A stretch of DNA of 64,000 nucleotides from an uncultured Acidobacteriota bacterium (GCA_963809475.1 CAWEJS010000001.1:410125-474124), one strand, 5' to 3'. Counted from the first letter of the stretch, positions 24,613-49,928 are shown. Notes: generated from the letters alone by a model not told the origin. A program made the numbers and translations.

Positions 24613-24689
<77 letters not shown>

Positions 24690-27594: not shown

Positions 27595-28214
27595 GCGGCC
27601 TAAGCAAGCGCATTGATGGACGAGGGCCACCGCAGCGGTGGCCCTCGCCGTGTACGGCGGAACAGTTCAGGCCCGTCGCTGCGGCCAGGTAAACCACCTC
27701 GTTATCTGGCAGGCCACCCCTTACAGTACCCTCCGGTGTCTTGACTCCGATCGGGGCCGGCGGTAGCGTCCGCCCTCAGCGGGCCGTGCGCCAGAGAGGA
27801 CCTGGCATGAGCAACGACCCCTCGGGCCGGCAGAGCAGGTACCACTACGCGAAGAACGCGGACCTGGCGGAGACGTGGCTCCTGCCGGGTGTGAAGGGTA
27901 AGACGAAGCTCGGGCTCGTGGATGCGCTACGGCCGCTCTGCGACAAGGGGCCGCAACCGGATCCTCGGCACCAGCCGGATGAGTGAGATCAAGCTGGAGC
28001 GCGCGGGCTGGACGCCGGACCTCTTCGTGTGACCGTCCGGCCGGACGGTTGGCATCGCGACACCGGCGGCGCTCTGGCTGCAAGCTGTCGATCATGGACG
28101 CGATCCGTCGCAAGAGCCTGCTCTACAAGAGCGGCTTGGGCTTCTGGTGGTTGAATCACGTCCAGGGACGCGCGCTTTGAACGTGCTACTCTTTTCGGCG
28201 CCAGAGGTGACCGG

Positions 28215-31633: not shown

Positions 31634-31831
31634 GCTGCCTCCTCCACTGTGCGCCTGCCGGTGGGCACACGGCCTTGGCAGCCCGGCCCATCGCCGCGCC
31701 GCGTAGCAGGCGGCCGCCATCCTATCACCGGGGACGGCCGGTCGCCAACTACCGTGGCGCTCGCGTATGGCCATTGCAGGAACGATGCCAGCAGCACTGG
31801 CAAGAACCCGGCCGAATCGCGCGCCGCATGA

Positions 31832-36974: not shown

Positions 36975-36990
36975 CGGGCTGAGGTGGCCC

Positions 36991-38085
36991 TCACCTGAAC
37001 AGCGCGGCTTCGACGGCCAGGCCAGGGCCGAACGCGAGCGCCAGGCACGGTCTCGGGGCGCCGCGCCGCCGGAGGCGTTCGAGGATGAACAGGATCGTTG
37101 GCGACGACATGTTGCCGAACTCCCCGAGCACCTCCTGCGACACCGCATAGTCCTCGCGGGTGATGCCCGTGGTCTGCGCAACGGACTCGAGGATACGCGG
37201 CCCCCCGGGGTGCACGGCCCAGGATGCGATGCGGTCCACGGACAGGCCGTTGTGCGCGAGCCAGCTGTCGAGCCACGGCCGCAGTTCGCGTTCGATCACG
37301 CCCGGCACTCGGGCCGACAACGACATCTCGAACCCGTGATTGCCGATCCGCCACGTCATCAGCTCGGCAGAATCCGTGAGCAGGGACGACCCGCTCCGGG
37401 CGAGCTCCCAGGCATCGCCTGACGCGGGCTTTCGTCCGCCCCCGACCAGTGCGGCCGCGCCGTCCGCGAAGATCGCGTTCGACACGATCCAGTCGCCGTG
37501 CCAGCCGTACTGGTAGTGGAGGCTGCAGAGTTCGACCGCGCAGACGAGCACACACGCGTCCGGATCGCTGCCGGCGTAGGCGCCCGCCACCCGCAGCCCG
37601 TTCAGCGCGCCGTGGCACCCCATGAATCCCACGTGCGTGCGGGCCACGGTCACCGGCAGCCCGAGATCCCCCACGAGCCGCATGTCGAAATTCGGCGCGG
37701 CAAATCCGGTACAGGACACCGTGACCAGGTGGGTCACGGTGAGCGGCGACACGCCGGCGTCCTCCAGCGCGGCTCTAGCCGCTCGCACGCCGAGGCCCGG
37801 CGCGTGGGTCTCGTACTGCGCCATGCGCTCGGCCGTGGATGGTCCGCAATCACCGGCGTCGCGCACGGGCGGGAAGAACGAATGACGGACGGTGCCGGGC
37901 TCGTCGCCCTCGTCGAGCACGACGCTGTGGCGCTTCTTCACCCGCGTCAGGCGGTAGATGGCCTTCAGCTGACGCTGCTGCTCGTCGGACGAGCCGCCAT
38001 ACTGCCGCGCGACCTCGACGGCCTGCTCCTGCGAGATCGCGTGCGGCGGCGAGGCGACGCCGATGCCGTACACATAGAGGGCCAT
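36991..38085 (-). CDS. type III polyketide synthase (chalcone synthase superfamily)
   Basis: The start is set at ATG 38085 (MALYVYGIG). Catalytic Cys (VSCTGFAAP), His (WAVHPGGPRIL) and Asn (FGNMSSPTILF). Confidence 0.9.
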   Translation of the reverse strand: MALYVYGIGVASPPHAISQEQAVEVARQYGGSSDEQQRQLKAIYRLTRVKKRHSVVLDEGDEPGTVRHSFFPPVRDAGDCGPSTAERMAQYETHAPGLGVRAARAALEDAGVSPLTVTHLVTVSCTGFAAPNFDMRLVGDLGLPVTVARTHVGFMGCHGALNGLRVAGAYAGSDPDACVLVCAVELCSLHYQYGWHGDWIVSNAIFADGAAALVGGGRKPASGDAWELARSGSSLLTDSAELMTWRIGNHGFEMSLSARVPGVIERELRPWLDSWLAHNGLSVDRIASWAVHPGGPRILESVAQTTGITREDYAVSQEVLGEFGNMSSPTILFILERLRRRGAPRPCLALAFGPGLAVEAALFR

Positions 38086-39287
38086 TACACGGTCCTTCCG
38101 ATCGCGCCGGGATGGCGCGGCGCCAGATGAGCCAGAACGGGCCTGGCGAGGCCCGGGTGTCGCCGAAGCAACAGGACGAGGGGCGTGACGATCGCGGGCA
38201 TCCTGAGCACACGCGCCACCACGCGGCACCACCGCTGCTCGCGGCGGATGCCGCCGGCGTACGCGCCGATCCACTCGCGCTCGAGCCGGCGCTCGTGGGA
38301 CTGCGTGGCCCGTATCACGAACGGCACCACGGCTTCCGCCCCGGCAAACGCCCACGCCATCCCCTCGCCGGTGAACGGCTCGACGTACCCGGCTGCATCA
38401 CCGATGACGAAGATCCCGCGCGCGGCCGGGCGGGACAGACCACGGGTCAGCGGGATCGTGCCCATCCATTCGACCTCATCCAGACCGGATCCGGTGCTCT
38501 GTCCGGCTTCCGCGAGGAGGACCCCGATCGCACGGGAAGCGGTGGCGTGGGCCTTGAGAAAGCCCGGATCGATGGCCGCCGCAATGTTCACGCGTCCGCC
38601 CTCGACCTCCACGGCACCGACGTAACCGTGCCGGCCGATGGCCATCGTGATCGACCCGGGGACGATCTCGACCGCGCCGCGTTCGGCCTCGCCACCCACG
38701 CCCACGCGCGCCGTCGGGGACACGCGGCCGTGAAAGGACGTGCACTCCCGCAGGGAACTGCGGGAAAGCCCGTCGGCCACGAGGACCGCCTTGCCTTCAG
38801 CGGACGCGCCCGGCCCGTGGGGCTGCTGCAGCAAGACGCGCCGCCAGCCCTCCCGCCACGGCTGGTTGCTCTCAGCCACGACCACTGCCGTCGTCCCAGG
38901 CAGGAATGCGCAACCGGCCTCAACCGCCGCTGACACCAGCTCCGCATCGAAGGCGCGCCGCGACACGGCCAACCCCGGCGCGATCTCGATCGCCACGCTC
39001 CGGCCGCGCTGGCGCAGATGAAGCACGTGGACGGGCGCGGCACCAAGGCCTCGAACCCGCTCGACGAGGCCGGCACGGGCGAGGGCCGCGATCGCCTGCG
39101 TGTTCAGGCATCCGCCGCATACCTTCGGACGCGGAAAGCGCCTGCGCTCGACCAGGAGGACCCGGAGCCGTGCGCGCGCCAGGAGACACGCGGACAAGGC
39201 GCCGGCGGGGCCGGCGCCGATGACAATCGCATCCCACGGCTGGAGTGCCGCGCGCGCGGCATCGATGGTCGGGGCGATGTCCGTCAT
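38085..39287 (-). CDS. FAD-dependent oxidoreductase/hydroxylase (geranylgeranyl-reductase-like fold)
   Basis: DAIVIGAGPAG dinucleotide motif, CGGCL, and a C-terminal GDAAGYVEPFTGEG. 1-nt overlap (TAATG) with the PKS start. Confidence 0.8.
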   Translation of the reverse strand: MTDIAPTIDAARAALQPWDAIVIGAGPAGALSACLLARARLRVLLVERRRFPRPKVCGGCLNTQAIAALARAGLVERVRGLGAAPVHVLHLRQRGRSVAIEIAPGLAVSRRAFDAELVSAAVEAGCAFLPGTTAVVVAESNQPWREGWRRVLLQQPHGPGASAEGKAVLVADGLSRSSLRECTSFHGRVSPTARVGVGGEAERGAVEIVPGSITMAIGRHGYVGAVEVEGGRVNIAAAIDPGFLKAHATASRAIGVLLAEAGQSTGSGLDEVEWMGTIPLTRGLSRPAARGIFVIGDAAGYVEPFTGEGMAWAFAGAEAVVPFVIRATQSHERRLEREWIGAYAGGIRREQRWCRVVARVLRMPAIVTPLVLLLRRHPGLARPVLAHLAPRHPGAIGRTV

Positions 39288-39311
39288 ACACGGGACTCCA
39301 TGCCCGATCCG

Positions 39312-40004
39312 TCACACCGGTCTTCGCCAGACCAGCAGCCATCGCTGCGGCCAGACCTCGTCGACTTCAGCGCCCGACAGGCACGCGCGCCGGGCCAGGG
39401 CGCGCGCCTCGCGGCTTGTGAGCGCGGCCGCAACCGAGCGCGCCCCGTCCACCCGGAACACGCGCGAACGGGACAGCAGGCGGCAGCCAACCCACGTGTA
39501 GAGACGGCCCAAAGGCGTCCGGCGCAGATCGGACACGACGACCGCGCGCGCCGCCGCGTCCCGCATGCGGCCCAGGAGGGCCACCGCGTCCGCGTCGGTC
39601 ACGTGGTGCAGGAACAGCGTGGAGACGACGACGTCCACGCCGGCGGGCATCGGGTCGCGCAACGCGTCGGCCCGCTCGAACCACACCCCTTTGACGCGTG
39701 ACCGATCGGCCAGGGTGCTCGCGTAGTCAACGGCGACGCGGCTCGTGTCCCAGCCGGTCCACTCGACATCGACCCCCTCGGCGGCGGCGCGCCGGGCCAG
39801 AGCCACGAGGACGTGGCCTCCGCCGCAGGCGACATCGAGGACGCGCAGTCGGCGTCCCGCGGCGTCGCGCGCCGCTTCCCGTATGACTGGCCAGATGGCG
39901 GCGGCCGTGCGGCTGACCGAATTGGCCAGACCCAGCGCGTCGAGCGCGCGGACGTGCTGCCGGACATCCAGGCCGGGCTGGTCCATCATCTCCGGCACGA
40001 TCAC
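39312..40004 (-). CDS. class I SAM-dependent methyltransferase
   Basis: Motif I (VLDVACGGGH) and the post-I acidic residue, 230 aa. Confidence 0.8.
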   Translation of the reverse strand: MIVPEMMDQPGLDVRQHVRALDALGLANSVSRTAAAIWPVIREAARDAAGRRLRVLDVACGGGHVLVALARRAAAEGVDVEWTGWDTSRVAVDYASTLADRSRVKGVWFERADALRDPMPAGVDVVVSTLFLHHVTDADAVALLGRMRDAAARAVVVSDLRRTPLGRLYTWVGCRLLSRSRVFRVDGARSVAAALTSREARALARRACLSGAEVDEVWPQRWLLVWRRPV

Positions 40005-40045
40005 GCGGGGGCTGCGGATCAGGAGCGTTCCTCCTCAGCTACGGA

Positions 40046-41443
40046 CTACTCGCTCAAGCCCGCGAGACGGTACTTGGCGAGGTAATGGCTCAAGGCGCGC
40101 TGGCTGATCCCCATGAGTTCGGCGGCGTCCTTCTTGACTCCGCCGGCCGCGTCGAGGGCCCGCCGGATGGTCTCGCGCTCGACCCACTCGAGGTTCTGAT
40201 GCAGGCGCATCGACGGCACTCCGGGCACGGCGGCCGGCGTGGCGCGCAGCCCCGAGATCGCGTCAGCCCCGAGAACCTCGTCGTGCGACAGGACGACCGC
40301 GCGTTCAATGGTGTTCTCGAGCTCGCGCGCGTTGCCCGGCCAGTCATACCGCTCGAGGATCGCCATCGCCGACTCGTGCAGGCGCTGCGCGGGCCTCCCG
40401 ATGCGATGCGCGTGCTTGCGGAGAAAGTGCACCGCAAGGACGGCGATATCCTCCCGGCGTTCACGAAGCGGGGGGATCCGGATCGGGATGACGTTGAGGC
40501 GGTAGAAGAGGTCCTCCTGGAAGCTCCCGTCGGCGACCATCTGCACGAGATCGCGGTTCGTCGCGGCGATGACGCGGACGTCGACCTTCTCGGCCCGTTC
40601 CGATCCCAGCGGCTCGAACTCGCGCTCCTGCAGCACGCGAAGGAGCTTCGCCTGGAGCGGCTGGCCCAGCATCGCGATCTCGTCGAGGAGGATCGACCCG
40701 CCGTGGGCGAGCGCGAACTTGCCCTTCTTGTTGGCCGTGGCCCCGGTGAAGGCGCCGCGCACGTGCCCGAACAGCTCCGACTCGAGCAGCGTCTCCGGGA
40801 TGGCCGCGCAGTTCACCTTGATGAGCGGCATCTCGCGCTGGGCGCTGCGATCGTGGATGGCCCGCGCGACGAGCTCCTTGCCCGTGCCGGTCTCGCCGGT
40901 GATGAGGACGGTGCTCTTCGTTTCCGCCACGCGCTCGAGCGTCCGGATGACGTCCTGGATGGCGCGGCTGCCGCCGACGATGCCGTAGTGGCCGAACTCC
41001 TCGTCGCGCTCGCTCAGCAGGTAGCGGTGCTGGTTGCGCAGGCGCTGAAGGTCGATCGCGCGGCGCACCACGACCAGCAATTCGTCGATCTCGAACGGCT
41101 TCTGGAGGTAGTCGAGCGCCCCGAGTTTCATGGCCTCGATGGCGCTGTCGACCGTGGCGTGCGCGGTCATCAGCACGATCTGGGGCCGCTCGCCGGACGG
41201 CGTATGCTGGACGAGGTCGCGGATGAGATCCAGCCCGGTGAGGTCGGGCATGATGTTGTCGACGACCGCGACGTCGAAGACCTGCTCGGTGAGGAGGCGC
41301 TGCGCCGCCCGGCCGCTGGACGTCTCCACGACGTCGTGGCCCTCTTCCCGCAGCGCGCGGCCCAGTGCCCGCAGGATGCGTTCCTCGTCGTCCGCAACCA
41401 GGATGCTCCCGGTGGCCAACCTGTCGTCCGTTCGCGATGTCAT
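40046..41443 (-). CDS. sigma54-dependent response regulator (NtrC family)
   Basis: The start is set at ATG 41443 (MTSRTDD...). REC domain (ILVADDE...D...K), AAA+ Walker A (GETGTGKE), the sigma54-contact GAFTGA motif, and a C-terminal Fis-type HTH. The track ORF of 859 aa is an artefactual upstream extension. Confidence 0.9.
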   Translation of the reverse strand: MTSRTDDRLATGSILVADDEERILRALGRALREEGHDVVETSSGRAAQRLLTEQVFDVAVVDNIMPDLTGLDLIRDLVQHTPSGERPQIVLMTAHATVDSAIEAMKLGALDYLQKPFEIDELLVVVRRAIDLQRLRNQHRYLLSERDEEFGHYGIVGGSRAIQDVIRTLERVAETKSTVLITGETGTGKELVARAIHDRSAQREMPLIKVNCAAIPETLLESELFGHVRGAFTGATANKKGKFALAHGGSILLDEIAMLGQPLQAKLLRVLQEREFEPLGSERAEKVDVRVIAATNRDLVQMVADGSFQEDLFYRLNVIPIRIPPLRERREDIAVLAVHFLRKHAHRIGRPAQRLHESAMAILERYDWPGNARELENTIERAVVLSHDEVLGADAISGLRATPAAVPGVPSMRLHQNLEWVERETIRRALDAAGGVKKDAAELMGISQRALSHYLAKYRLAGLSE

Positions 41444-43263
41444 GAGGTCCCCTCGCCCGCTCTGCCGGGCGGCGGTGCGGCCGGCAGCTCGATGCGCACG
41501 TTCGTGCCGGAGGGCGTCCCGCTGGCGATGGCGATGACACCACCGAGGCTCTCGATGATGTTCCGCGAGATCGCCAGGCCGAGTCCCGTCCCGCCCCGGC
41601 GCGTGGTGAAGAACGGCTCGAACAGCCGCGCCGCGACGGCAGGATCGACGCCGGGGCCGTCGTCGTGAACGACGACGACGGCCCCGCCCTGCTCGCGCGC
41701 GACGGCGCGGATCTCGATTCGCGCGTGCCCGGGTTCGGCGCCGTCCGCCGCGCTCCCCGGGACGGCGCGAACCGCCTGGGCGGCATTCTGCAGGATGTTG
41801 ACCAGGACGGTGCGCACGCGCTCGGGGTCGGTGCGAATCGCAGGAAGCCCGGGCGCAGGGACGACGCCGATGGCCACGCCTCCGTCTGCGGCCTGGACGG
41901 CCTGCGCCGCCTCCTGACAGAGGGCGTTGACGTCGGCGTCCCGCCACGTGAACGTGATGGGCTTCGCATAATCGAGCACTTCGCTGACGATCCGGTTGAG
42001 GCGGATCACCTCCTGGTCGATGTCCTGGATCGCCTCCGCGCGGACGTCCGGCCCGGCGTCGGCCTGGCGCAGCGTCCGCGTCGCCGACTTGATGATCATC
42101 AGCGGGTTGCGAATCTCGTGGGCGATCACGCTCGACAGGCGGCCCAGCGAGGACAGGCGCTCGCGCTGGGCGGCTTCCTTCTCGAAGCCCGCGATGGAAT
42201 CGGTGAGCGTGTTGAACGTCGACGCCAGCAGACGCGCGTCCTCGTCGTCCCAGGACCCCGGCTGCACCGGGATCTTGCGGGTGAGGTCGCCGGTCGCAGC
42301 CACGTCGCGCATGACGTCGGTGATGGAGGCCAGGGGCCGCGTGACCGTTCTTGCGACGGCATAACTCAGCACCGTCGCGAGGAGGATCGTGGCGAGGGCC
42401 GCGGCGCCAATCACGGTCTGGATGTGGCCCACGAACCGCAGCTGTTCGCTCCTCGAGCGGACGACCATGACGAAGGGCGAGCCCTCGACCGCAACGGGAT
42501 CGCGCCCTCCCGCCCGGGCACCCGGAGCCCTCATGAATGGTGCCGACAGGAGCACGTAGTCGTCCTCTCCCGCCGACACCCGGGCCATGCGCCCCGGCAC
42601 GCCCGCAGCGTCGAAGGCCGCCCACGTGGGCCGCTGGAGCGTGGACGCCCGGGTTCGGCCGTCAAGGCCGAAGGACACGTCGCTGCCCGTCAACTGCTTG
42701 AAGTCGGCCGCGACCGCCCCGTCGAGCAGGAACCCGACGCTGAGGGTGCCGGCGATGCCCGCAGGATCGCCCCCGATCGTGATCGGCACGCTCAGCACCT
42801 GGAGGAGGCCGTCCGGGTGGGCCCGGAAGGACGAGGCCGTCGTGCCGCGCAACGCGGCTCGAATTGACGGTAGCGTGGACGAGACCCCCGGGTCCAGGAC
42901 GAGGGGGCCGGCCATCGCCAGCACGCGGGCGTCACGATCGGTGACCACCACCAGGCTCGATCGAGCGAGCATCTGCTGGTAATCGGCCGCCAGCGGCTGG
43001 ACCGTGGGCGGATCGCCGGTCGCGACGGCGGCCTTGAGCTTCGGCAGGTCGGCGATCAACCGGGCAAGCATCGAGATGGTCTCGACCAGCGCTTCCCCCT
43101 GGCGCCCGACGACGGCGCCCGACTCCACGAGCCCGCGCTGGAGGTCCGACTCGGCCTGCGCGGTGACGCGCGAGCTCACGAAGAACGCCGTGAACCCCGT
43201 GGCGAGCACGACGAGCAGCGCCGCCGCGAGGAAGATCCGGTTCGTGAGCGATGCCAGCAGCAT
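41440..43263 (-). CDS. sensor histidine kinase (TM - periplasmic domain - TM - HAMP - HisKA - HATPase)
   Basis: H-box (VIAHEIRNPL), N box, and G boxes (DDGPGV, GGTGLGLAIS). 4-nt overlap with the regulator gene. Start at 43263 (MLLASLTNRIF) by alignment with the paralog; 43293 is also possible. Confidence 0.85.
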   Translation of the reverse strand: MLLASLTNRIFLAAALLVVLATGFTAFFVSSRVTAQAESDLQRGLVESGAVVGRQGEALVETISMLARLIADLPKLKAAVATGDPPTVQPLAADYQQMLARSSLVVVTDRDARVLAMAGPLVLDPGVSSTLPSIRAALRGTTASSFRAHPDGLLQVLSVPITIGGDPAGIAGTLSVGFLLDGAVAADFKQLTGSDVSFGLDGRTRASTLQRPTWAAFDAAGVPGRMARVSAGEDDYVLLSAPFMRAPGARAGGRDPVAVEGSPFVMVVRSRSEQLRFVGHIQTVIGAAALATILLATVLSYAVARTVTRPLASITDVMRDVAATGDLTRKIPVQPGSWDDEDARLLASTFNTLTDSIAGFEKEAAQRERLSSLGRLSSVIAHEIRNPLMIIKSATRTLRQADAGPDVRAEAIQDIDQEVIRLNRIVSEVLDYAKPITFTWRDADVNALCQEAAQAVQAADGGVAIGVVPAPGLPAIRTDPERVRTVLVNILQNAAQAVRAVPGSAADGAEPGHARIEIRAVAREQGGAVVVVHDDGPGVDPAVAARLFEPFFTTRRGGTGLGLAISRNIIESLGGVIAIASGTPSGTNVRIELPAAPPPGRAGEGTS

Positions 43264-43400
43264 GGTCGCGGTTCTCACCGGATGCCACACCATCTGTCGA
43301 CTACGCCGTCGTCCGGCACGGCCACGATGCGCGTCTCGCGGACCGCGCCTTCATGCCACACGGCGAGGGTGTACAGACCCCGGCGGGACGCCGGCCCGGG
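42191..43400 (-). repeat. segmental duplication, copy B (relic of the upstream gene's 3' end plus the sensor/HAMP module of the kinase)
   Basis: Collinear nucleotide and protein similarity to 44520..45735 with an offset of about 2330 bp. Similarity stops right after the HAMP segment (...STFNTLTDSIA). Confidence 0.8.
43275..43400 (-). pseudogene. relic copy of the last ~41 codons of the cupredoxin-like gene (no start codon)
   Basis: Translates to PGPASRRGLYTLAVWHEGAVRETRIVAVPDDGVVDRWCGIR*, compared with PPGSYTLAVWYEGEVRERRTVVVPDDGVVESAFVIR* at the end of 45607..46296. It begins 2 nt after the PP2C gene stop. Confidence 0.7.
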
Positions 43401-43402
43401 AC

Positions 43403-45592
43403 TCACGCGGGTGAGCCACGCTTGCACACCACCACGGTGATGTCGTCCTGTTGTGGGGCGGCGCCGACGAAGTCGTGCACGGTTCGACAGAGGCGCTGCA
43501 CGAGTTGCTCGGCGGGTTCGTGGCGGTGCGCTCGGATCACGCGCAACGCGTTCTCTGCTCCGAAGACGCCGCCGGTGCTGTCCTCAGCCTCGGAGATCCC
43601 GTCGGTGAACAGGACCACGAGGTCTCCCGGCTCGAGCGCGAGGTCTTCGTAGCACCCGTACTCCTGGCTCGGGAACATCCCCAGCGGTACGCCGGTGCTG
43701 CTCAGGGCGGTCTTCATCCCGCCCTCCCGATCAAGGTGGTAGCCGGACACGTGGCCCGCATTCACACAGCTGAAGCGGTTCGAGCGGGCATCGAGCCTGA
43801 CCAACACCATCGCCACATAGTGGTTGGATTCCAGGTCGGCAAAGAGCGCGTCGTTGATGATCGCGAAGGTCTGCCCCGGGCTGGAACACGATTTCGAGAG
43901 GAACCGCAGGTACGAACGCGTCGCCGCCATGATCAGCGCCGGCCCGAGCCCGTGCCCGCACACGTCGCCGATCACCAGGTCCAGGCCGTGATCGGCCAGC
44001 GGCACGTAGTCGAAATAGTCTCCGCAGGTGGCCTGGGCCGGGAACACCGCACCAGCGATGTCATACCCCTCCACATGCGGCGCGGCTGCGGGGTAGAGCT
44101 TCTGCTGGATCTGAGACGCGTACTGCATCTCGATGTCCTGCGCCTGGCGTTTGAACCGGTCCGTCATGTCCTTGACGACCGCCACGAAGTGGATGATATG
44201 TCCGTCCGACGCTTTCACCGGCGTGATCGTCTGCTCGGCGTGGTAGAGTTCGCCGCTCTTCTTGCGATTGAGGGTGTTGGATCGGAAGGTCGACCCGGCC
44301 AGGATGGTGCTCCACAGTTCCGCGTAATACTGCGGACCGGCCTGTCCCGATTTCAGGATGCGCGGGGTCTGGCCGATTGCCTCTTCGCGGGAGAAGCCCG
44401 TGGTCGTCTCGAAGGCGGGGTTGACGTACTCGATCACGCCCTCGCGATTCGTGATGAAGACCGTGTCGGCGGTCTGCTCCACGGCACTCGAGAGGCGCAA
44501 CCGCTCCCCCTCGGTCCGGGCGATCGAGTCGGTCAGGGTGTTGAACGTCGACGCCAGGAGACGCGCGTCCTCGTCCTGCCAGGACCGCGAGCGCAACGGG
44601 ATCTTGCGCGTCAAGTCCCCGGTCGCGGCGACCTCGCGCATCACGCTGGTGATGGCAGCGAGCGGACTGGTCACGGTCCGCGCGACGGCGTAGCTCAACA
44701 CCGTGGCGAGCAGCATCGTGATGATCACGGTCACGGCAATGCCGGTCTGAATCGGACCGAGGAACCGCAGTTGCTCGGTCCGTGACCGCACGACGACGAC
44801 AAAGGGCGATCCGCCCACGACCGCTGGCGCGTGGCTCCTTGCCCCGGCGACCGACATCGGCACGAGCGGTCCCGACAACAACACGTACTCATCCGGGCCG
44901 GACGTCACCCGCGACATCCGGTCGGGCCGCCGTGCGTTGTCCAGGAGCGGCCAGAGCGGTTCCGGGAGCGTCGCGGCCACGATCCGTCCATCGAGGCCAA
45001 ACGCGATCTCGCTCCCTGTCAGTTGCTTGAGGTCGGACGCCGCCGCATCGTCGAGCAGGAACCCGACGCTGAGTGTGCCTGCCAGGCTCGCGGGTTCCCC
45101 ACCCACCGTGATCGGCACAGACAGCACCTCGAGGATGCCCGCGGGGTGGCGGCGAAACGACGAGGCCGGAGAGCCTGCCAGCGCGGCCCGCACGGACGGC
45201 AGGGCCTCGCCCAGCGCCGGATCCAGCGCGGCCGGGCCGGCTGATGCCAGCACCCGACCGTCCCGGCCGGTCACCACCACGAGGCTCGAGCCGGCGAGCA
45301 TTTGCTGATAGTCGGCGACAAGGGGTTGAACGGTGGGAGGGTCGCCGGTGGCCACGGCTGCCTTGAGCTTCGGCAGATCGGCCATCAGGCGCGCCAACAC
45401 CGCGAAGGTCTCGACGAGCGCCGCACCCTGGCGTCCAACGACAGCGCCGGATTCCAGCAGCCCGCGCTGCAGCTCCGCCTCGGCTTCGGCGGTCACCCGC
45501 GAATTGACGAACACCGCCGTGACGCCAACCGCCAGCACCACCAGCAGCGCGGCTGCGAGGAAGATCCGGTTCGTGAGCGAGGCCAGCCGCAT
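43403..45592 (-). CDS. sensor protein: TM - periplasmic domain - TM - HAMP - PAS - PP2C/SpoIIE phosphatase
   Basis: The N-terminal ~330 aa are paralogous to the adjacent kinase. PAS region (VFITNREGVIEYVNPAFETTTGFSREEAIG). PP2C motifs (GDYFDY, GDVCGHG, TDGISEA, DDITVV). Confidence 0.85.
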   Translation of the reverse strand: MRLASLTNRIFLAAALLVVLAVGVTAVFVNSRVTAEAEAELQRGLLESGAVVGRQGAALVETFAVLARLMADLPKLKAAVATGDPPTVQPLVADYQQMLAGSSLVVVTGRDGRVLASAGPAALDPALGEALPSVRAALAGSPASSFRRHPAGILEVLSVPITVGGEPASLAGTLSVGFLLDDAAASDLKQLTGSEIAFGLDGRIVAATLPEPLWPLLDNARRPDRMSRVTSGPDEYVLLSGPLVPMSVAGARSHAPAVVGGSPFVVVVRSRTEQLRFLGPIQTGIAVTVIITMLLATVLSYAVARTVTSPLAAITSVMREVAATGDLTRKIPLRSRSWQDEDARLLASTFNTLTDSIARTEGERLRLSSAVEQTADTVFITNREGVIEYVNPAFETTTGFSREEAIGQTPRILKSGQAGPQYYAELWSTILAGSTFRSNTLNRKKSGELYHAEQTITPVKASDGHIIHFVAVVKDMTDRFKRQAQDIEMQYASQIQQKLYPAAAPHVEGYDIAGAVFPAQATCGDYFDYVPLADHGLDLVIGDVCGHGLGPALIMAATRSYLRFLSKSCSSPGQTFAIINDALFADLESNHYVAMVLVRLDARSNRFSCVNAGHVSGYHLDREGGMKTALSSTGVPLGMFPSQEYGCYEDLALEPGDLVVLFTDGISEAEDSTGGVFGAENALRVIRAHRHEPAEQLVQRLCRTVHDFVGAAPQQDDITVVVCKRGSPA

Positions 45593-45735
45593 GGTCACGG
45601 ATCCCCTCACCGAATCACAAACGCGCTCTCGACGACGCCGTCGTCCGGTACGACCACCGTGCGCCTCTCGCGGACCTCGCCTTCATACCAGACAGCGAGG
45701 GTGTACGAACCCGGCGGGATGCCGGTGAACGTGTA
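44520..45735 (-). repeat. segmental duplication, copy A (3' end of the cupredoxin-like gene plus the sensor/HAMP module of the PP2C protein)
   Basis: See copy B. By eye, roughly 70 percent of amino acids are identical across the sensor module. Confidence 0.8.
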
Positions 45736-46296
45736 GCGTCCGGACACATCGGTCACCGCGAAGAACCGGTGGGCGAACACGAGGATGTAGGCGCTCATGT
45801 GCGAATGGATGTCGCAGAACACCTGCACGACGCCGGGGCGGTCGAACCGCACGGACTTCGACTTGCCGCGCGAGTAGCGGCCCAGGTCGAAGGCCTTGGT
45901 CTTCGACAGCGAGAACACGTTGTGGAACGTGATATCGCGGTTCGGGAAGTCCACCGTCGTGCCGACCGCGATCGCCAGCACGTGCGGCACGAACGTCTGG
46001 TCCCGCTGATTCATCGTGGCGCGCGCGGACTCGTCGAGTTCGAACGCGCCGCGAGGCGCGGTGTCCAGGTAGACGACGGCCGGCCGGAGCTCGGCCGGCC
46101 GGCGAGGCGGCGCGCCCAGCGCGGCGGACGCCGGCCTGGCTTCGGTGGCAAGTTGGCTGCGGCGTATGTCGACGACGCCGCGGATCGTGCCGTTGGCGCC
46201 CGACGCGACGACTCCCTGGCGGGCCGCCGCCGCGAGGGCGAGCATGACGATCGCGAGGATGGCGACGGCACGCGGACTGACGCTGTGGCTTTTCAT
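45607..46296 (-). CDS. periplasmic cupredoxin-like protein flanked by CarboxypepD_reg-like segments
   Basis: ATG 46296 with a signal peptide. TVDFPNRDITFHNVFS...VFCDIHSHMSAYI gives a type-1-copper-like H...C-x2-H-x2-M pattern. The C-terminus (GRYTFTGIPPGSYTLAVW) resembles a carboxypeptidase-regulatory fold. Confidence 0.6.
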   Translation of the reverse strand: MKSHSVSPRAVAILAIVMLALAAAARQGVVASGANGTIRGVVDIRRSQLATEARPASAALGAPPRRPAELRPAVVYLDTAPRGAFELDESARATMNQRDQTFVPHVLAIAVGTTVDFPNRDITFHNVFSLSKTKAFDLGRYSRGKSKSVRFDRPGVVQVFCDIHSHMSAYILVFAHRFFAVTDVSGRYTFTGIPPGSYTLAVWYEGEVRERRTVVVPDDGVVESAFVIR

Positions 46297-46301
46297 CGGC
46301 G

Positions 46302-47528
46302 TCAGAACCAGAGGAGCGCCTGGACGGCCGCCAGGCGACTTCGGCGGACGCCGCCGCCGTCGCGCCAGTTGTCCATGACGGAGGCCTTCACGAGCAGGCC
46401 CCGCCTGATTGTGTATCCCACGCCAAGCTCGACTCGGGACACATTCGCGTCCCACGTGCGGAAGCCGGCAGAGCCGCGAAGGGCCGAGAAGGTCATGCGA
46501 TCACCCCGGGCCGCGACGTAGAAACCCGGGCGCAGGCGTACCTTGGTTTCGAGATACCAGGCCCGGGATCCGAGCGGGTCGATGATGCGCGGCTCGTCCA
46601 GGGCCGGCAGCGCCCACGAACTCGCCACGAACTCGCCGCGAAGCAGCCAGCGGCCCCACGACGTCTCGGCATCGATCCCGACGGCTTGCTGATTGTAGGG
46701 CCGGTCCGGAATGCCGGGACGCGCTGCGCGGACCACGTCACTGACGAACGCGCCCCGAGCGGCGGACACGCCGATGGCGAACGCGGGAACGGGCCGCCAG
46801 CCCAGGTGGCCGGCCACCTGGCCGCCTCCGTTGTCGTTCTTCACCAGCGGGGACGACAGCGATCCCACGGTCAGCGCCACCGCGCCTTCCAGCGTCGGCC
46901 GCCCCACGCGAACCTCGATTCCTGTGTCCCACCGGCCAGCCGCAATCATCGGCACGCCGGCTCCCGCGTACGCATCGCCCACCGGGTAGGAAGCCCGCCA
47001 TCCCCGGCCGCGCATCCGCAGCAGGTCGTCGGCCGTCGCCGGCACGGCGTCCGGGCGCAGCGACGTCAGGTACTGGTACCCGAGCGGATCGCCGATGAGC
47101 GGATTGTCTTGCGGATAGCTTCGCCGCGCGTATGTTCCGAACACGGGCGGGATCCGCCCGGCCTGGATGTCAACGAGGCCGCTGTCAAACGGTGTCAGGC
47201 GCATGTACCACGCATACGGCCTGACGCCGGTTCCTGTTTCGGCCCGGATCTCCGTCAGGAAGGTCAATCGCCGCGACACGCGGAGCTCGACGGTCAGGCC
47301 GGCGCGGATCCGTCGAAGCGCACTGGTCTCATAGTCCGTGTACGTGAACCAGCCCGGGTCATCGCTGCCATAGGTCGCCGACGCGTCGCCTGCCAGAAGG
47401 AGGCGGCCGCCGGCAAGGGCTACCGGCTCGCTCGGCCAATGCTGAGCGTCAGCCAGGGGTGGCTGGAGTGGCCCGACGCAGGCAACGAACGTTGCAACGG
47501 CGATCCGCCGCGAGATACTCGCACACAT
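46302..47528 (-). CDS. putative outer-membrane beta-barrel protein
   Basis: The start is set at ATG 47528 with a signal-like peptide (MCASISRRIAVATFVACVG...ADAQ). Alternating beta-strand pattern, Gly/aromatic-rich, C-terminal ...ALLWF. The rest of the 729-aa track ORF is discarded. Confidence 0.5.
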   Translation of the reverse strand: MCASISRRIAVATFVACVGPLQPPLADAQHWPSEPVALAGGRLLLAGDASATYGSDDPGWFTYTDYETSALRRIRAGLTVELRVSRRLTFLTEIRAETGTGVRPYAWYMRLTPFDSGLVDIQAGRIPPVFGTYARRSYPQDNPLIGDPLGYQYLTSLRPDAVPATADDLLRMRGRGWRASYPVGDAYAGAGVPMIAAGRWDTGIEVRVGRPTLEGAVALTVGSLSSPLVKNDNGGGQVAGHLGWRPVPAFAIGVSAARGAFVSDVVRAARPGIPDRPYNQQAVGIDAETSWGRWLLRGEFVASSWALPALDEPRIIDPLGSRAWYLETKVRLRPGFYVAARGDRMTFSALRGSAGFRTWDANVSRVELGVGYTIRRGLLVKASVMDNWRDGGGVRRSRLAAVQALLWF

Positions 47529-47605
47529 TCTTGAGTGCCGACTCCATTCTATGCACATTCGCTGCCCGGCCGGAGAGCGGTTCGGGCACGGTGCCCGCCC
47601 GCCGG

Positions 47606-48562
47606 CTAGCGCAACCGATACGTCGCGAGCGCGCGGAGGTTGAAAAGGCCGTCGTTCCGCGCCGGCGCACCCGGGCCTCGCCTGACCGAGAGCGGGGAAT
47701 AGAAGGCATCCACGCTCAGAGACAGCCGGGTCGTCAGCGGGTAGCTGATCCCGCCGCTGGCGGACGCTGTCACGCCGTGCGAGGTGTACCTGGTGTGATC
47801 GATCATGTCGAAGGTCAGCGCGTCGACCTGGAACGCCACGTTCATATAGGTGAGCCCGACCGCGGCATGCGGTGAGAGCCTGTGCGGGACGCCCGGCCGA
47901 TACGCGATGCTGGCTTCCCCGCCCGCATAGCGCAAGACCGCTGTGTCTGATGACGCCGCCTGGCAGCCGTCGATGTTGCCGGGGGAGCCCGGCTCGAACG
48001 CCAGGATCGTCTCCGGGCACGTGTAAGACCCCTTCACCCGGCCGACCTGCCCGTAGCCGCGCAGGCCCACAGCCCACGAGGTTGTTTCGTAGACTGGCCG
48101 CTCGATTGCGATCGCCAGCAGCGCCGGCGTGATCCCGAACATCCGGACGGGAGGCACCACCGCGACGATGAGCGACAGGCGGGCCGGCAGCGCGATGGTG
48201 ACACGGGGCCTCAGGAACATCGGCGCCTTGTTGAGATCCTGTGCCTCCGTTCCGTCGTATCCGACGAGCTGCTGCGCGTCGCTGAGCGGAGGCAGCCATC
48301 CGACTTCCAGTCCGAGTGACACGGCGCCCGGCTTCCGGGTGCGGGGCGTCTCGAGGCCGCTGAGCAGAGAGGCCGACGCGAAGTGCTTGAGCGCCCACGA
48401 TTCCGGCCGGTCGAAGGAAAGGTGGTCGACGCTGTTCATGACCATCTGGGCGGCTGAGGGCGACGGGATGCCGACGAGACACGCGGCGCAAGCGGCCAGG
48501 CAGACCACCGTCCTCGAGACCCCGACACGACGTCGCACGTTACCGAGCAGTTCCGGTGTCAC
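47606..48562 (-). CDS. putative outer-membrane beta-barrel protein
   Basis: Signal peptide (VVCLAACAACLVGIPSPSAAQ), alternating-hydrophobic strands, and an aromatic-containing terminal strand (LRALATYRLR). Confidence 0.45.
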   Translation of the reverse strand: MTPELLGNVRRRVGVSRTVVCLAACAACLVGIPSPSAAQMVMNSVDHLSFDRPESWALKHFASASLLSGLETPRTRKPGAVSLGLEVGWLPPLSDAQQLVGYDGTEAQDLNKAPMFLRPRVTIALPARLSLIVAVVPPVRMFGITPALLAIAIERPVYETTSWAVGLRGYGQVGRVKGSYTCPETILAFEPGSPGNIDGCQAASSDTAVLRYAGGEASIAYRPGVPHRLSPHAAVGLTYMNVAFQVDALTFDMIDHTRYTSHGVTASASGGISYPLTTRLSLSVDAFYSPLSVRRGPGAPARNDGLFNLRALATYRLR

Positions 48563-49196
48563 TTGAAGTCCTCGCTCTCAGCACGAACTGAATGTCGATC
48601 TCGTCTCTGACACGCACCGTGCCACCTCCCGCGGTCACGGGCACCATGCCGAACTCGGACTGCTTCAGCGAGCATGACCCGCGAGCCGTGAGGCGGCCCC
48701 CAGCGTCGATGGTTGCGGTGGCGCGGACGGCCAACGGGCGCGTCGTGCCGTGCAATGTCAGATCGCCCTCGATCAGGAGGTCCGCGGCGGCGGCGGTCCG
48801 CGCCGACACCGAGACCCGCCGCGACCGGTAGCCAATCGTCGGGAATCGTTCGACGTCCAGCACCCGGCCGCCCAGCATCACCCGCTGAACCTCGCCCACG
48901 TCCGCGGGCGGTTCGTTCCTGCCGGTCACGCGCAGGGCGGCCGCTGCGAATTCGAGCGAGACACTGGCGCGCGACAGGTCCACCGGATCGAACACCACCT
49001 GGCCATGGACGTCCGCCGCGGCCACCTCGTGCGCGTGTCCGGCAAAGCCGAACAAACCGGCTTTCCCGACCTGAATCAGGACCTGACTGTCCGCAGCATC
49101 GACGGTCATCACCGTCGGGCTGCTGCCGGCCGACGCCGCGGCCTGGGCGAACAGACACGCCGCGATCGGGAAGCGCCACCGTGAACCGTGCAACAT
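48540..49196 (-). CDS. YceI-family periplasmic lipid/polyisoprenoid-binding protein
   Basis: Signal peptide, then the YceI pattern (S.V.F...K....F.G.......G.V.FD), LDVERFPTI and GDLTLHGTTRP. Confidence 0.75.
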   Translation of the reverse strand: MLHGSRWRFPIAACLFAQAAASAGSSPTVMTVDAADSQVLIQVGKAGLFGFAGHAHEVAAADVHGQVVFDPVDLSRASVSLEFAAAALRVTGRNEPPADVGEVQRVMLGGRVLDVERFPTIGYRSRRVSVSARTAAAADLLIEGDLTLHGTTRPLAVRATATIDAGGRLTARGSCSLKQSEFGMVPVTAGGGTVRVRDEIDIQFVLRARTSSDTGTAR

Positions 49197-49246: not shown

Positions 49247-49262
49247 TGCAAGGCGCGTGCCC
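49247..49262 (-). promoter_or_regulatory. sigma54 (-24/-12) promoter GGGCACG-N4-TTGCA upstream of yceI
   Basis: The minus strand reads CCAGGGGCACGCGCCTTGCAGTCG. The GG-N10-GC spacing is exact, and 15 of 16 positions match TGGCACG-N4-TTGCA. It lies about 50 nt upstream of the yceI ATG, with a GAGGTGA RBS in between. Confidence 0.6.
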
Positions 49263-49384: not shown

Positions 49385-49505
49385 GCTCACCGGTGCGATC
49401 GCCCGAATATCGTGATGTTGGCGCTCCGGACGTCGGTATCGAACTTGCACTGGCGTACGTCGGGTATGGAAAGGAGGGGCCGAACCGGTCCCAGGAGGAT
49501 AGATC

Positions 49506-49928
49506 ATGAACTCGCGATTGACGCTCACGATCGGCGGCGTACTTCTCATTGCGGCGACGGCGGCAGGCTGTGGCGGCGGCGGCATGGGCAGCAGCTACGG
49601 CAGTCCGGCGGCGCCGACCCCGACGAGCCCCGCGCCGACTCAAGGGCCCGTGACGGCGGCGGACGTCACAATCACCATCGTCGGCATGAACGGCAGCAAC
49701 TCGTACTCGCCGAACCCGGTGACGGTGAAGGTCGGCCAGACGGTGGCGTGGCGCAACGCCGACTCGTTGATCCACACCGCGACTGCAGACGCGGGGGGCT
49801 TCGACACGGGCAATATCGCCGCCGGTGCGACGAGCTCCGCGATTGCCATGAATACCGCAGGGAGCTTTCCCTACCACTGTGCGATCCATGGCTTCACCAT
49901 GACCGGGACCTTGACGGTCACGCAGTAG
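49506..49928 (+). CDS. plastocyanin/azurin-family cupredoxin lipoprotein
   Basis: Lipobox (LIAATAAGC). Type-1 copper ligands: H (SLIHTAT) and YHCAIHGFTMTG (C-x2-H-x4-M). Confidence 0.8.
   Translation: MNSRLTLTIGGVLLIAATAAGCGGGGMGSSYGSPAAPTPTSPAPTQGPVTAADVTITIVGMNGSNSYSPNPVTVKVGQTVAWRNADSLIHTATADAGGFDTGNIAAGATSSAIAMNTAGSFPYHCAIHGFTMTGTLTVTQ

What the first reader, a model, noticed from the sequence alone, without database searches (positions are those of the whole stretch)
41440..45735. One sensor module duplicated in tandem and wired to two different outputs
The first ~330 residues of the PP2C protein and of the His kinase (TM, ~260-aa periplasmic domain, TM, HAMP) are collinear. By eye they are about 70 percent identical, for example LTNRIFLAAALLVVLA, DLPKLKAAVATGDPPTVQPL, GTLSVGFLLD and DEDARLLASTFNTLTDSIA. 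Similarity ends abruptly after the HAMP segment. One protein continues with PAS and PP2C, the other with HisKA and HATPase. The same periplasmic cue would thus feed a phosphorelay to a sigma54 activator and, in parallel, a Ser/Thr phosphatase whose partner is not in the window. The periplasmic domain itself has no motif I can assign.
Basis: seen in the sequence. Interest (0 to 1): 0.6.

Follow-up and report, generated by a model that had tools for sequence, protein, structure and literature searches.

The report
Twin membrane sensors, phosphatase and kinase outputs
Two neighbouring genes of a soil Acidobacteriota (probably Vicinamibacterales) bacterium share one periplasmic sensor but end in a protein phosphatase and a histidine kinase; this is a real, recent domain-shuffling event, but today's kinase neighbour is a later swapped-in copy, not the direct twin.

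Summary
Two adjacent minus-strand genes share a collinear N-terminal ~360 residues (TM, periplasmic domain, TM, HAMP). They are 72% identical in protein and 74% over 1,213 nt. Similarity stops about three residues after HAMP. One gene continues as PAS plus a SpoIIE-type PP2C phosphatase, the other as HisKA/HATPase followed by a sigma-54 response regulator.

The DNA repeat starts ~115 nt upstream of both start codons. This leaves a relic of the upstream gene's 3' end between the two genes, which is a duplication footprint.

The periplasmic domain models as a dCache fold. No STAS or RsbW partner lies in the window.

The interpretation needs three corrections.
- The phosphatase's sensor is 91% identical to a kinase in a sister contig. 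It forms an exclusive clade with that kinase (100% bootstrap). The window's own kinase belongs to another clade (98-99%).
- Against that sister contig the flanks are 91-95% identical but the whole kinase gene is ~73%. The kinase gene was therefore replaced by recombination.
- A third lineage carries the phosphatase fusion with no kinase or regulator next to it.

Among 1.84 billion cluster representatives, only one cluster has this fusion. I classify it as a recent, narrow variant of known sensor phosphatases (Chlamydia RsbU, SiaA). Whether both proteins sense the same cue is untested.

The parts
49247..49261 (-). Sigma-54-type promoter-like site (GGCACGCGCCTTGCA), ~50 nt upstream of the yceI-like ATG. 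Candidate promoter of the whole minus-strand gene string.
   Evidence: It has one mismatch to TGGCAC-N5-TTGCW and is conserved at the same place in L001 and L003. Window-wide, matches are not enriched over shuffles, so position and conservation are the only support.
48540..49196 (-). YceI-like periplasmic protein, first gene of the string.
   Evidence: Pfam YceI, E 4.6e-18.
47606..48562 (-). 318-aa protein with no family assignment.
   Evidence: No Pfam or NCBIfam hit. No BLASTP match (best E 1.6) to the DUF5777 protein of the one canonical locus compared, L005.
46302..47501 (-). 399-aa protein with no family assignment, conserved partner of the sensor locus. Its C-terminus ends in ...LLWF, which looks like an outer-membrane protein (inference).
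   Evidence: 71% identical to the 408-aa protein of canonical locus L005. Present in canonical loci, the window and L013.
45607..46296 (-). 'Cup': a 229-aa secreted blue-copper (cupredoxin) domain plus a CarboxypepD_reg-like beta-sandwich. Its stop overlaps the alternative GTG start of the PP2C gene (GTGA).
   Evidence: Pfam CarboxypepD_reg and Copper-bind, both just below threshold. H125/C161/H164/M167 are invariant in 31 homologues. The AF2 model hits plastocyanin, pseudoazurin and amicyanin by Foldseek.
44520..45725 (-). Repeat copy 1: the last ~115 nt of Cup plus TM1, dCache, TM2 and HAMP of the PP2C gene.
   Evidence: blastn 74.2% over 1,213 nt against copy 2.
43403..45592 (-). Sensor phosphatase gene (729 aa). 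Layout: TM1 aa 6-30, dCache ~31-278, TM2 279-300, HAMP 303-358 (nt 44686..44519), PAS 366-478 (44497..44159), SpoIIE-type PP2C 534-725 (43993..43418).
   Evidence: The motifs CGDYFD, GDVCGHG, TDGISE and QDDIT are read directly from the sequence.
44507..44518 (-). Fusion junction: ...NTLTDSIAR | TEGE RLRLSSAVEQ. Homology to kinases ends here and homology to the last PAS of multi-PAS SpoIIE phosphatases begins.
43284..43400 (-). Relic of the Cup 3' end (about the last 38 codons plus its stop), lying between the PP2C stop and the kinase start. This is the duplication footprint.
   Evidence: The relic starts at the same place (about 3 nt after the PP2C stop) in L004. It is deleted, with the same 118-nt deletion bounded by GTGAG, in L001 and L003.
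42191..43394 (-). Repeat copy 2: the Cup relic plus TM1, dCache, TM2 and HAMP of the kinase.
41440..43263 (-). Histidine kinase (607 aa). Same sensor plus HAMP, then HisKA aa 373-434 (42147..41962) and HATPase_c aa 479-596 (41829..41476). AtoS/ZraS-like core.
41420..43300 (-). Recombinant patch covering the last ~15 nt of the relic, the whole kinase gene and the first ~8 codons of the regulator. It is ~73% identical to L004, while both flanks are 91-95%.
   Evidence: Clade incongruence is shown.
40046..41443 (-). Sigma-54-dependent response regulator (REC, AAA+ and Fis-type HTH), AtoC/NtrC-like. Its start overlaps the kinase stop.

Best explanation
What it is. This is a lineage-specific rewiring of a conserved Acidobacteriota sensing module. 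The probable order is Vicinamibacterales, based only on NCBI's label on one Cup homologue.

Ancestral locus (shown). It reads: 408-aa protein, periplasmic blue-copper protein (Cup), dCache-HAMP histidine kinase, sigma-54 response regulator.

The fusion event. In one small clade, a ~1.2-kb segment was copied. The segment comprised the last ~115 nt of Cup plus the kinase's TM-dCache-TM-HAMP part. The copy was joined in frame, three residues after HAMP, to the last PAS domain and SpoIIE-type PP2C domain of a multi-PAS phosphatase. The junctions and their single origin are shown; the mechanism is inferred. The result is Cup, sensor-PAS-PP2C, Cup relic, sensor-kinase, regulator.

Later events. In sister contig L004 the kinase still carries the phosphatase-type sensor. 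In the window lineage the entire kinase gene was later replaced by a divergent allele from another ortholog clade, through homologous recombination. The mosaic is shown; its direction is inferred. That replacement explains the 72% identity. Another lineage, L013, keeps only 408-aa protein, Cup and fusion.

How it works (inferred). Both proteins are inner-membrane dimers. Their dCache domains read a periplasmic signal, probably together with the co-conserved blue-copper protein and the 399-aa protein. HAMP passes the signal on.
- In the kinase, this sets phosphorylation of the regulator and sigma-54 transcription. A likely target is the promoter-like site upstream of yceI, which would make the string autoregulated and place the phosphatase gene under kinase control.
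- In the fusion, HAMP and PAS set a Ser/Thr phosphatase. It would act on a phosphoprotein encoded elsewhere, of the STAS/RsbV or SiaC type.
For: Collinearity and junctions.

Domains. The dCache fold is supported.

Canonical locus without PP2C: four contigs, L002, L005, L011 and L012.

Narrow distribution of the fusion:
- The next PAS-SpoIIE homologues are at most 59% identical and lack this sensor.
- Only one of 1.84e9 cluster representatives matches end to end.
- None is found among GTDB species representatives.

Single origin: the relic starts at the same place, about 3 nt after the PP2C stop, in the window and in L004. The two relics also share derived bases.

Kinase replacement:
- Sliding identity against L004 is 91-93% (PP2C), ~73% (the kinase gene) and 91-95% (regulator). 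The patch boundaries lie at ~43300 and ~41420.
- {window PP2C sensor, P0240 sensor, P0001 kinase sensor} form an exclusive clade in 100% of bootstraps.
- The window kinase groups with clade B in 98% (sensor) and 99% (kinase core) of bootstraps.
- The window regulator is closer to clade A (87-88%) than to clade B (84-85%).
- dS between the window PP2C sensor and the L004 kinase sensor is 0.17, no greater than ortholog dS of 0.23-0.26.

The fusion is functional:
- omega is 0.07-0.25.
- It keeps 107 of 110 family-conserved sensor positions.
- All four PP2C metal motifs are present in the sequence.
- It is retained alone in L013.

Promoter. Blue-copper Cup.
Against: - No ligand, phosphatase substrate or transcript was observed. 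All mechanism steps after the anatomy are inferred.
- No STAS, RsbW or SiaC-like gene lies in the window or beside related PAS-SpoIIE genes. The output is therefore unknown.
- The donor of the replaced kinase is not sampled closely; the best clade-B relative is ~74-78% identical. A paralogous locus in the same genome could be the source instead of another species.
- L013 ends its homology exactly 3 nt after the PP2C stop. This fits a 'stand-alone fusion first, joined to a kinase locus later' history about as well as in-situ tandem duplication.
- L001 and L003 each carry a 1-nt insertion in the fusion's sensor. These may be long-read assembly errors or real decay.
- The sigma-54 site is a single consensus match, and such matches are not enriched window-wide.
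- Trees are NJ on ~360 and ~230 columns, not ML.
Confidence: 0.6

Rival explanations
1. Old in-situ tandem duplication. The two window sensors are the direct duplicates and have simply diverged to 72% under purifying selection. The L004 kinase sensor looks like the PP2C sensor because of gene conversion in that lineage.
For: The relic and the tandem layout. Omega of 0.21 between the copies, with dS ~0.9.
Against: Conversion from the PP2C copy can only cover the shared 1.2 kb. Yet the L004 kinase core also differs from the window's (64% aa) and belongs to another clade (99% bootstrap), while both flanks are 91-95% identical. Dozens of kinases from other organisms fall between the two window sensors in the tree.
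Confidence: 0.1
2. Stand-alone fusion first. A copy of the 408-aa, Cup, kinase module lost its kinase core to a PAS-PP2C gene, giving the L013-like state. Later a Cup-3'-end, kinase, regulator segment was joined right after the PP2C stop. On this view the window pair was never a local tandem duplication.
For: L013 carries 399-aa protein, Cup and fusion in an unrelated context. Its homology ends 3 nt after the PP2C stop and it has no relic. The window locus itself is not in the canonical dxr-rseP context.
Against: This history needs two illegitimate joins instead of one complex event. The tandem state occurs in at least two of the three deep sub-lineages: window/L001/L003 and L004. The sequence downstream of the stop in L013 shows no link to neighbourhoods of PAS-SpoIIE homologues.
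Confidence: 0.2
3. The fusion is a non-functional or decaying by-product of recombination, and only the kinase-regulator pair matters.
For: Independent 1-nt insertions in the sensor part of the fusion in L001 and L003. No partner gene is nearby. The distribution is very narrow.
Against: Omega is 0.07 (sensor) and 0.15 (PAS-PP2C) against L003, and 0.20-0.25 against L004. The fusion keeps 107 of 110 conserved positions. Intact 729-aa ORFs occur in the window and in P0240. It is retained without the kinase in L013. Both frameshifted contigs also have other fragmented genes, which suggests assembly errors.
Confidence: 0.07
4. The two sensors no longer see the same cue, or they interact physically. 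In the second case a fusion/kinase heterodimer would act as a modulator or decoy, so the pair would be one circuit rather than two parallel outputs.
For: The TM1, stalk helix and HAMP regions, which I take to be the dimer-forming parts (own knowledge, not tested here), are 84-85% identical. The proximal Cache module (51%) and TM2 (59%) have diverged. Heteromers of freshly duplicated homomers are common (PMC6711710).
Against: There is no direct evidence. All family-invariant sensor positions are kept in both copies. The fusion persists without any adjacent kinase in L013.
Confidence: 0.15

Closest known systems
Chlamydia trachomatis RsbU (periplasmic sensor domain, TM and PP2C; Rsb partner-switching)
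   Same: A membrane protein with a periplasmic dCache-type domain wired to a SpoIIE/RsbU-type PP2C phosphatase. PDB 6mab is among the Foldseek hits of the sensor model. [quoted passage not shown]
   Different: Here a PAS domain sits between HAMP and PP2C. The sensor is borrowed from a sigma-54 two-component kinase family. No RsbV or RsbW genes are nearby. Sequence identity to 6mab is ~11%.
Pseudomonas aeruginosa SiaA (two TM segments, HAMP and PP2C; SiaABCD)
   Same: TM-HAMP-PP2C architecture. SiaA acts on a small phosphoprotein partner rather than on a response regulator (PMC7647112). There is a weak NCBIfam SiaA match, E 6e-11, far below its cut-off.
   Different: No siaB/C/D-like genes lie adjacent, the sensor domain differs, and a PAS domain is inserted. 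The protein is not a member by NCBIfam's threshold (41.5 bits against 700).
Multi-PAS SpoIIE phosphatases of Acidobacteriota (RsbP/RsbU-like 'PAS domain S-box' proteins)
   Same: This family is the source of the output half. Identity is 50-59% from 'RLSSAVEQTAD' to the C-terminus, that is, their last PAS plus SpoIIE.
   Different: They carry 2-3 PAS domains and neither this dCache sensor nor HAMP. The fusion took only the last PAS plus the phosphatase.
DctB-DctD, AtoS-AtoC and ZraS-ZraR (sensor kinases with NtrC-family sigma-54 regulators)
   Same: The kinase branch is a periplasmic double-Cache kinase. The DctB sensor domain is a top structural hit. The core is AtoS/ZraS-like and the regulator is AtoC/NtrC-like.
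   Different: Scores are below every equivalog cut-off. The ligand is unknown. The kinase is coupled to a blue-copper protein and a 399-aa protein, not to transport or metabolic genes.
LuxP-LuxQ and TorT-TorS (sensor kinases that read a periplasmic partner protein)
   Same: The LuxQ periplasmic domain is among the structural hits. A secreted protein gene (Cup) is translationally coupled to the sensor gene and travels with it in every locus type.
   Different: This is purely an analogy. Cup is a cupredoxin, not a periplasmic binding protein, and no interaction was tested.

Membership tests
SpoIIE/RsbU-type PP2C phosphatases (PF07228) | Domain match above Pfam's gathering score | tested here: met
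   161.4 bits against a cut-off of 25, aa 534-725, covering the full-length profile.
SpoIIE/RsbU-type PP2C phosphatases (PF07228) | Metal-binding aspartate motifs | tested here: met
   CGDYFD, GDVCGHG, TDGISE and QDDIT are present in the translation. Assigning them to metal binding rests on my own knowledge of the family.
SpoIIE/RsbU-type PP2C phosphatases (PF07228) | Mn/Mg-dependent phospho-Ser/Thr phosphatase activity | not testable with these tools
   Needs an enzyme assay.
Rsb-type partner-switching module (RsbU-RsbV-RsbW) | STAS anti-sigma antagonist and RsbW-type kinase/anti-sigma encoded with the phosphatase | tested here: not met
   No STAS or HATPase_c_2-only protein among ~50 window ORFs, nor next to homologues P0141 and P0128. 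The rest of the genome was not available.
SiaA (NF038263) | Equivalog score and siaBCD neighbours | tested here: not met
   41.5 bits against a cut-off of 700. There are no SiaB/C/D-like neighbours.
dCache (double Cache) extracytoplasmic sensors | Long N-terminal stalk helix plus two PAS-like alpha/beta modules between two TM helices | tested here: met
   The AF2 model has pLDDT 84, with helix 6-71 and two beta-rich modules. Foldseek against PDB hits DctB, LuxQ, KinD, vpHK1S-Z8, TlpA and RsbU at E 1e-8 to 1e-5.
dCache (double Cache) extracytoplasmic sensors | Sequence-profile match (PF14827 dCache_3 or similar) | tested here: inconclusive
   My hmmscan found only sub-threshold sCache_3_2 and CHASE4 matches. 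PF14827 is precomputed on many homologues and is weak on P0240.
HAMP | Two amphipathic helices after TM2, and a Pfam match | tested here: met
   27.1 bits (kinase copy, above the cut-off of 25) and 21.7 bits (PP2C copy, below it). Model helices 279-324 and 341-359. The two copies are 84.5% identical here.
NtrB/AtoS-type kinase plus NtrC-type sigma-54 regulator | HisKA plus HATPase_c in the kinase; REC, Sigma54_activat and HTH_8 in the adjacent regulator | tested here: met
   No equivalog cut-off is reached, so no named system is assigned.
Segmental (tandem) duplication | Collinear DNA homology that extends beyond the coding module into flanking sequence, in direct orientation | tested here: met
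   74.2% over 1,213 nt, including ~115 nt of the upstream gene's 3' end.
Segmental (tandem) duplication | The two copies are each other's closest relatives | tested here: not met
   The PP2C sensor clusters with the L004 kinase P0001 and with P0240 (100% bootstrap). The window kinase clusters with clade B (98-99%). A later replacement of the kinase gene explains this.
Type-1 blue copper proteins (for the upstream Cup protein) | Cupredoxin fold with a His/Cys/His/Met ligand set | tested here: met
   H125, C161, H164 and M167 are invariant in 31 sequences. Foldseek hits plastocyanin, amicyanin and pseudoazurin with TM 0.55-0.63 on the target. Copper binding itself was not tested.

The most novel reading that the evidence does not exclude
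The contigs capture a natural series of signalling rewiring in one small clade:
1. Kinase only.
2. A fresh twin with near-identical sensors on kinase and phosphatase (L004).
3. A twin whose kinase gene was swapped for a 72%-identical allele (the window).
4. Phosphatase only (L013).

The most novel reading is that freshly duplicated dimeric sensors interfere with each other by forming heterodimers. On this reading, whole-gene allele replacement by recombination, or loss of one partner, is how the conflict was resolved. That would be a route to paralog insulation different from point-mutation divergence.
Probability: 0.2. Interest if true: 0.7.

Novelty: new variant of a known kind. Interest (0 to 1): 0.5.

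Why it matters
Sensor phosphatases and domain shuffling in bacterial signalling are both well known, so the architecture alone is not surprising.

The unusual part is how recently and cleanly the event is preserved. Both junctions are readable to within a few bases. A relic of the upstream gene marks the copied segment. The fusion occupies a single 50%-identity cluster among 1.84 billion representatives.

Related contigs also show the state before the event, two different states after it, and a whole-gene replacement of the kinase. That gives a concrete system for asking how a new output is grafted onto an existing sensor. It also allows a test of how twin dimeric sensors are kept from interfering with each other.

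The work also ties a very widespread Acidobacteriota module to a testable idea. The module is a 408-aa protein, a blue-copper protein, a dCache kinase and a sigma-54 regulator. The idea is that it senses periplasmic redox or copper state.

Tried and rejected
- Sequence-profile search of the sensor against PDB found only kinase cores such as ZraS. Nothing matched the periplasmic domain. The fold had to come from AF2 plus Foldseek.
- Pfam on ~50 window ORFs found no STAS, RsbW or anti-sigma partner. The neighbourhoods of two PAS-SpoIIE homologues gave no conserved partner either.
- The genome-contig scan gave only two loci, and both matched the sensor half only.
- I looked for gene conversion between the two window copies. 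The longest identical run is 26 nt, so recent conversion is rejected.
- I tested whether the 318-aa, YceI or 141-aa cupredoxin genes of the window correspond to the DUF5777, cupredoxin_1, 151-aa, 143-aa or Haem_bd genes of canonical locus L005. No BLASTP match was better than E 0.046. Only the 399/408-aa protein is shared.
- The terminator and sigma-70 promoter scan found nothing informative in the 139-nt spacer.
- The sigma-54 consensus scan is not enriched window-wide. Only the positionally conserved sites were kept.
- I considered that the relic is read through in frame after the PP2C TGA stop. The frames differ, so this is rejected.
- A first tree script with Biopython distance bootstraps timed out. 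It was redone with a faster implementation.
- YN00 dN/dS failed on the saturated comparisons, so NG86 values are reported.

Full report
**1. What is at the coordinates**

All genes of the region lie on the minus strand. In order they are:
- a YceI-like gene (49196..48540);
- a 318-aa ORF (48562..47606);
- a 399-aa ORF (47501..46302);
- a 229-aa secreted protein here called Cup (46296..45607);
- the PP2C protein (45592..43403, 729 aa);
- a 139-nt spacer;
- the histidine kinase (43263..41440, 607 aa);
- a sigma-54 response regulator (41443..40046).

A methyltransferase, an FAD oxidoreductase and a type III polyketide synthase follow. The window has 64-73% G+C. ORFs were chosen by their codon-position G+C pattern.

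**2.

- BLASTP of the two proteins gives 72% identity over 374 columns, E 6e-159. It covers residues 1-369 against 1-372, and nothing else aligns.
- At the DNA level, 45725..44520 matches 43394..42191 at 74.2% over 1,213 nt.
- Pfam finds PAS plus SpoIIE on the first protein and HisKA plus HATPase_c on the second. HAMP is found on both. The next gene has REC, Sigma54_activat and HTH_8.
- Similarity ends at ...NTLTDSIAR. The kinase continues FEKEAAQRERLSS (DHp). The phosphatase continues TEGERLRLSSAVEQTAD, which is the N-cap of the last PAS domain of multi-PAS SpoIIE phosphatases.

**3.

The repeat starts ~115 nt before the start codons. The spacer 43400..43284 is therefore a relic of the last ~38 codons of Cup, including its stop.

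The copied unit was thus the Cup 3' end plus TM, periplasmic domain, TM and HAMP. About 3 nt after the PP2C stop codon comes the relic. The relic starts at the same place in contig L004, and the two relics share derived bases. The junction therefore arose once.

The window's two closest relatives, L001 and L003, share one 118-nt deletion of the relic. The deletion is bounded by the short repeat GTGAG.

**4. The sensor fold**

An AF2 model of residues 1-360, built on a 59-sequence alignment, has mean pLDDT 84. It shows a long helix (6-71), two alpha/beta modules, TM2 and a two-helix HAMP.

Foldseek against PDB returns double-Cache sensors at E 1e-8 to 1e-5. They include DctB, LuxQ, KinD, vpHK1S-Z8, TlpA and the periplasmic domain of Chlamydia RsbU. 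By sequence profile only the kinase core finds solved relatives, with ZraS best.

**5. Who else has it**

The sensor half finds more than 4,000 proteins, and nearly all of the best 120 are ~607-aa kinases.

Four contigs show the canonical locus, with no phosphatase. These are L002, L005, L011 and L012. The locus reads dxr, rseP, Haem_bd (opposite strand), 408-aa protein, Cup, kinase, sigma-54 regulator and cupredoxin_1, with a DUF5777 gene further downstream except in L002.

The output half finds close relatives only at 85-96% identity. After that it finds multi-PAS SpoIIE proteins at 59% or less, and these lack the sensor.

An exhaustive phmmer search of 1.84 billion 50%-cluster representatives finds a single end-to-end match, P0240 (89% identity). 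Every other hit covers only one half of the query, apart from P0352 (38% identity, query residues 135-729), which has its own unrelated N-terminal region.

GTDB species representatives gave only two sensor-only hits, both Acidobacteriota MAGs. A Cup homologue is labelled Vicinamibacterales by NCBI. The fusion is therefore very young and narrow.

**6. The 72% identity is not the age of the duplication**

The phosphatase's sensor is 91% identical to kinase P0001, but only 72% identical to its own neighbour. P0001 lies on L004 directly downstream of a PAS-SpoIIE gene and a relic.

Sliding identity between the window and L004 is:
- 91-93% across the PP2C half;
- 61-82% (about 73%) from the end of the relic through the whole kinase gene;
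- 91-95% from about codon 9 of the regulator onward.

The boundaries lie at ~43300 and ~41420.

In NJ bootstraps (300 replicates):
- the two phosphatase sensors plus P0001 form an exclusive clade in 100%;
- the window kinase groups with 'clade B' kinases, excluding that group, in 98% (sensor) and 99% (kinase core).

The window regulator and 399-aa protein are closer to clade A loci, as are L004's kinase and regulator. L004 is therefore internally congruent and the window is not. The simplest reading is that the window lineage replaced its whole kinase gene with a divergent allele by homologous recombination. The relic and the regulator 5' end would have served as flanking homology.

Two further results agree with this.
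- dS between the window phosphatase sensor and the L004 kinase sensor is 0.17. Ortholog dS for the regulator (0.26) and the PP2C half (0.23) is higher.
- The 104 nt of the L004 fusion's HAMP that survive on the contig are ~95% identical to L004's own kinase HAMP.

A second mosaic boundary falls at the same spacer in L001, where PP2C dS is 0.06 but kinase and regulator dS are 0.26-0.28. No conversion tract links the two window copies; the longest identical run is 26 nt.

**7. A stand-alone form**

P0240 lies on L013. There the 418-aa protein, Cup and the fusion sit in an unrelated context. No kinase, regulator or relic is present. Homology to the window (47568..43400, 89%) stops 3 nt after the PP2C stop.

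This can be read in two ways. Either L013 lost the kinase half, or the stand-alone fusion came first and was later joined to a kinase locus. I cannot decide between these with the available contigs.

Two conclusions follow either way. The fusion is kept without a twin. And the conserved core across all locus types is the 399/408-aa protein, Cup and the sensor.

**8. Is the fusion functional?**

- omega is 0.21 between the window copies.
- omega is 0.25 against the L004 kinase sensor and 0.20 for the PP2C half against L004.
- omega is 0.07 (sensor) and 0.15 (PAS-PP2C) against L003.
- The fusion keeps 107 of 110 positions that are at least 90% conserved in the kinase family. The kinase itself keeps 104.
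- The PP2C motifs CGDYFD, GDVCGHG, TDGISE and QDDIT are intact (the motif assignment is my own knowledge).

L001 and L003 each have a different 1-nt insertion in the sensor. Both contigs also carry other fragmented genes. Given the low omega, I take these insertions to be assembly errors, but this is unverified.

**9. How it probably works**

The anatomy is shown; the rest is inferred.

Both proteins should be membrane dimers whose dCache domains face the periplasm.

The kinase branch is a standard AtoS/ZraS-like kinase with an AtoC/NtrC-like regulator. A sigma-54-type site, GGCACGCGCCTTGCA, lies ~50 nt upstream of the yceI ATG and is conserved in L001 and L003. Similar sites precede cupredoxin_1 in L005 and Haem_bd in L011. 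If the site is real, the whole string is autoregulated, including the phosphatase gene.

The phosphatase branch resembles Chlamydia RsbU and P. aeruginosa SiaA in layout. Its substrate is not in the window, nor is it beside homologues. The intervening PAS domain is NifL/LOV-like but lacks the LOV cysteine (sequence). It may add a cytoplasmic input.

The cue is unknown. Three observations suggest a periplasmic redox or copper signal, possibly relayed by Cup in the way LuxP relays to LuxQ:
- Cup is a cupredoxin with an invariant His/Cys/His/Met set.
- Cup is translationally coupled to the sensor gene.
- Cupredoxin, haem-binding and cytochrome genes lie nearby.

This part is speculative.

**10. 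Comparison and verdict**

Membrane sensor phosphatases and the reuse of one sensor type with many outputs are established. The protein is a SpoIIE-type PP2C by Pfam's threshold. It does not qualify as SiaA, and it cannot be filed under an Rsb partner-switching module because no partners were found.

What is new is this particular graft, and the preserved evolutionary series around it. The graft joins a Vicinamibacterales-type dCache-HAMP kinase sensor to PAS-PP2C.

Novelty: a new variant of a known kind. Interest is moderate (0.5).

Noticed in passing
window 36991..40004 (minus strand): Directly downstream of the sigma-54 regulator lie a SAM methyltransferase, an FAD-dependent oxidoreductase and a type III polyketide synthase (chalcone-synthase-like). 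The trio resembles Srs/Ars-type phenolic-lipid clusters (own knowledge). A chalcone-synthase-like gene is also called downstream of the regulator in L001 and L003, but not in canonical loci.
   Followed up: partly
window 31775..31789 (minus strand); L003 17079..17093: A second sigma-54-like site (TGGCATCGTTCCTGCA) lies just upstream of a cytochrome c3/c7-like gene. It is conserved in L003. It may mark a regulon member of the regulator.
   Followed up: partly
L001 ~10000 and L003 ~8500 (PP2C sensor region): Each close relative has a different single-base insertion that breaks the fusion ORF. Both contigs also have other split genes. Whether these are assembly errors or real frameshifts was not resolved.
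   Followed up: partly
L001 11731..19052 against window 43274..36000: Against the window, L001 is 96.7% identical up to the PP2C stop but only 92.2% from the kinase onward (dS 0.06 against 0.26-0.28). This is a second recombination boundary at the same spacer.
   Followed up: partly
window 45607..46296 and 49503..49928: Cup carries an invariant amicyanin-like C-x2-H-x2-M copper site fused to a CarboxypepD_reg-like beta-sandwich. The family has more than 7,500 members in metagenomes, and JGI mostly names them 'plastocyanin'. A second small cupredoxin is transcribed divergently from the operon.
   Followed up: partly
window 4398..10065 (plus strand): An isc-type Fe-S cluster operon: Rrf2/IscR, a cysteine desulfurase fragment call, IscU, an HscB-like J-protein, a 665-aa ORF in the HscA position (not scanned) and a 2Fe-2S ferredoxin. 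Fe/Mn superoxide dismutase and a peroxiredoxin follow at 17804..18945.
   Followed up: no
window 28155..31163 (plus strand): A 1,002-aa ORF with gene-like codon bias and no Pfam match at E<=0.001.
   Followed up: no
window 24500..28100: A stretch with lower G+C (0.64-0.66) and no ORF reaching the G+C3 filter. It holds an alpha/beta hydrolase and a PEP-CTERM protein.
   Followed up: no
window 11854..15986 (minus strand): A TonB-dependent receptor with an N-terminal CarboxypepD_reg domain, followed by an ABC ATPase and a FecCD permease. This looks like an iron or siderophore-type uptake set.
   Followed up: no
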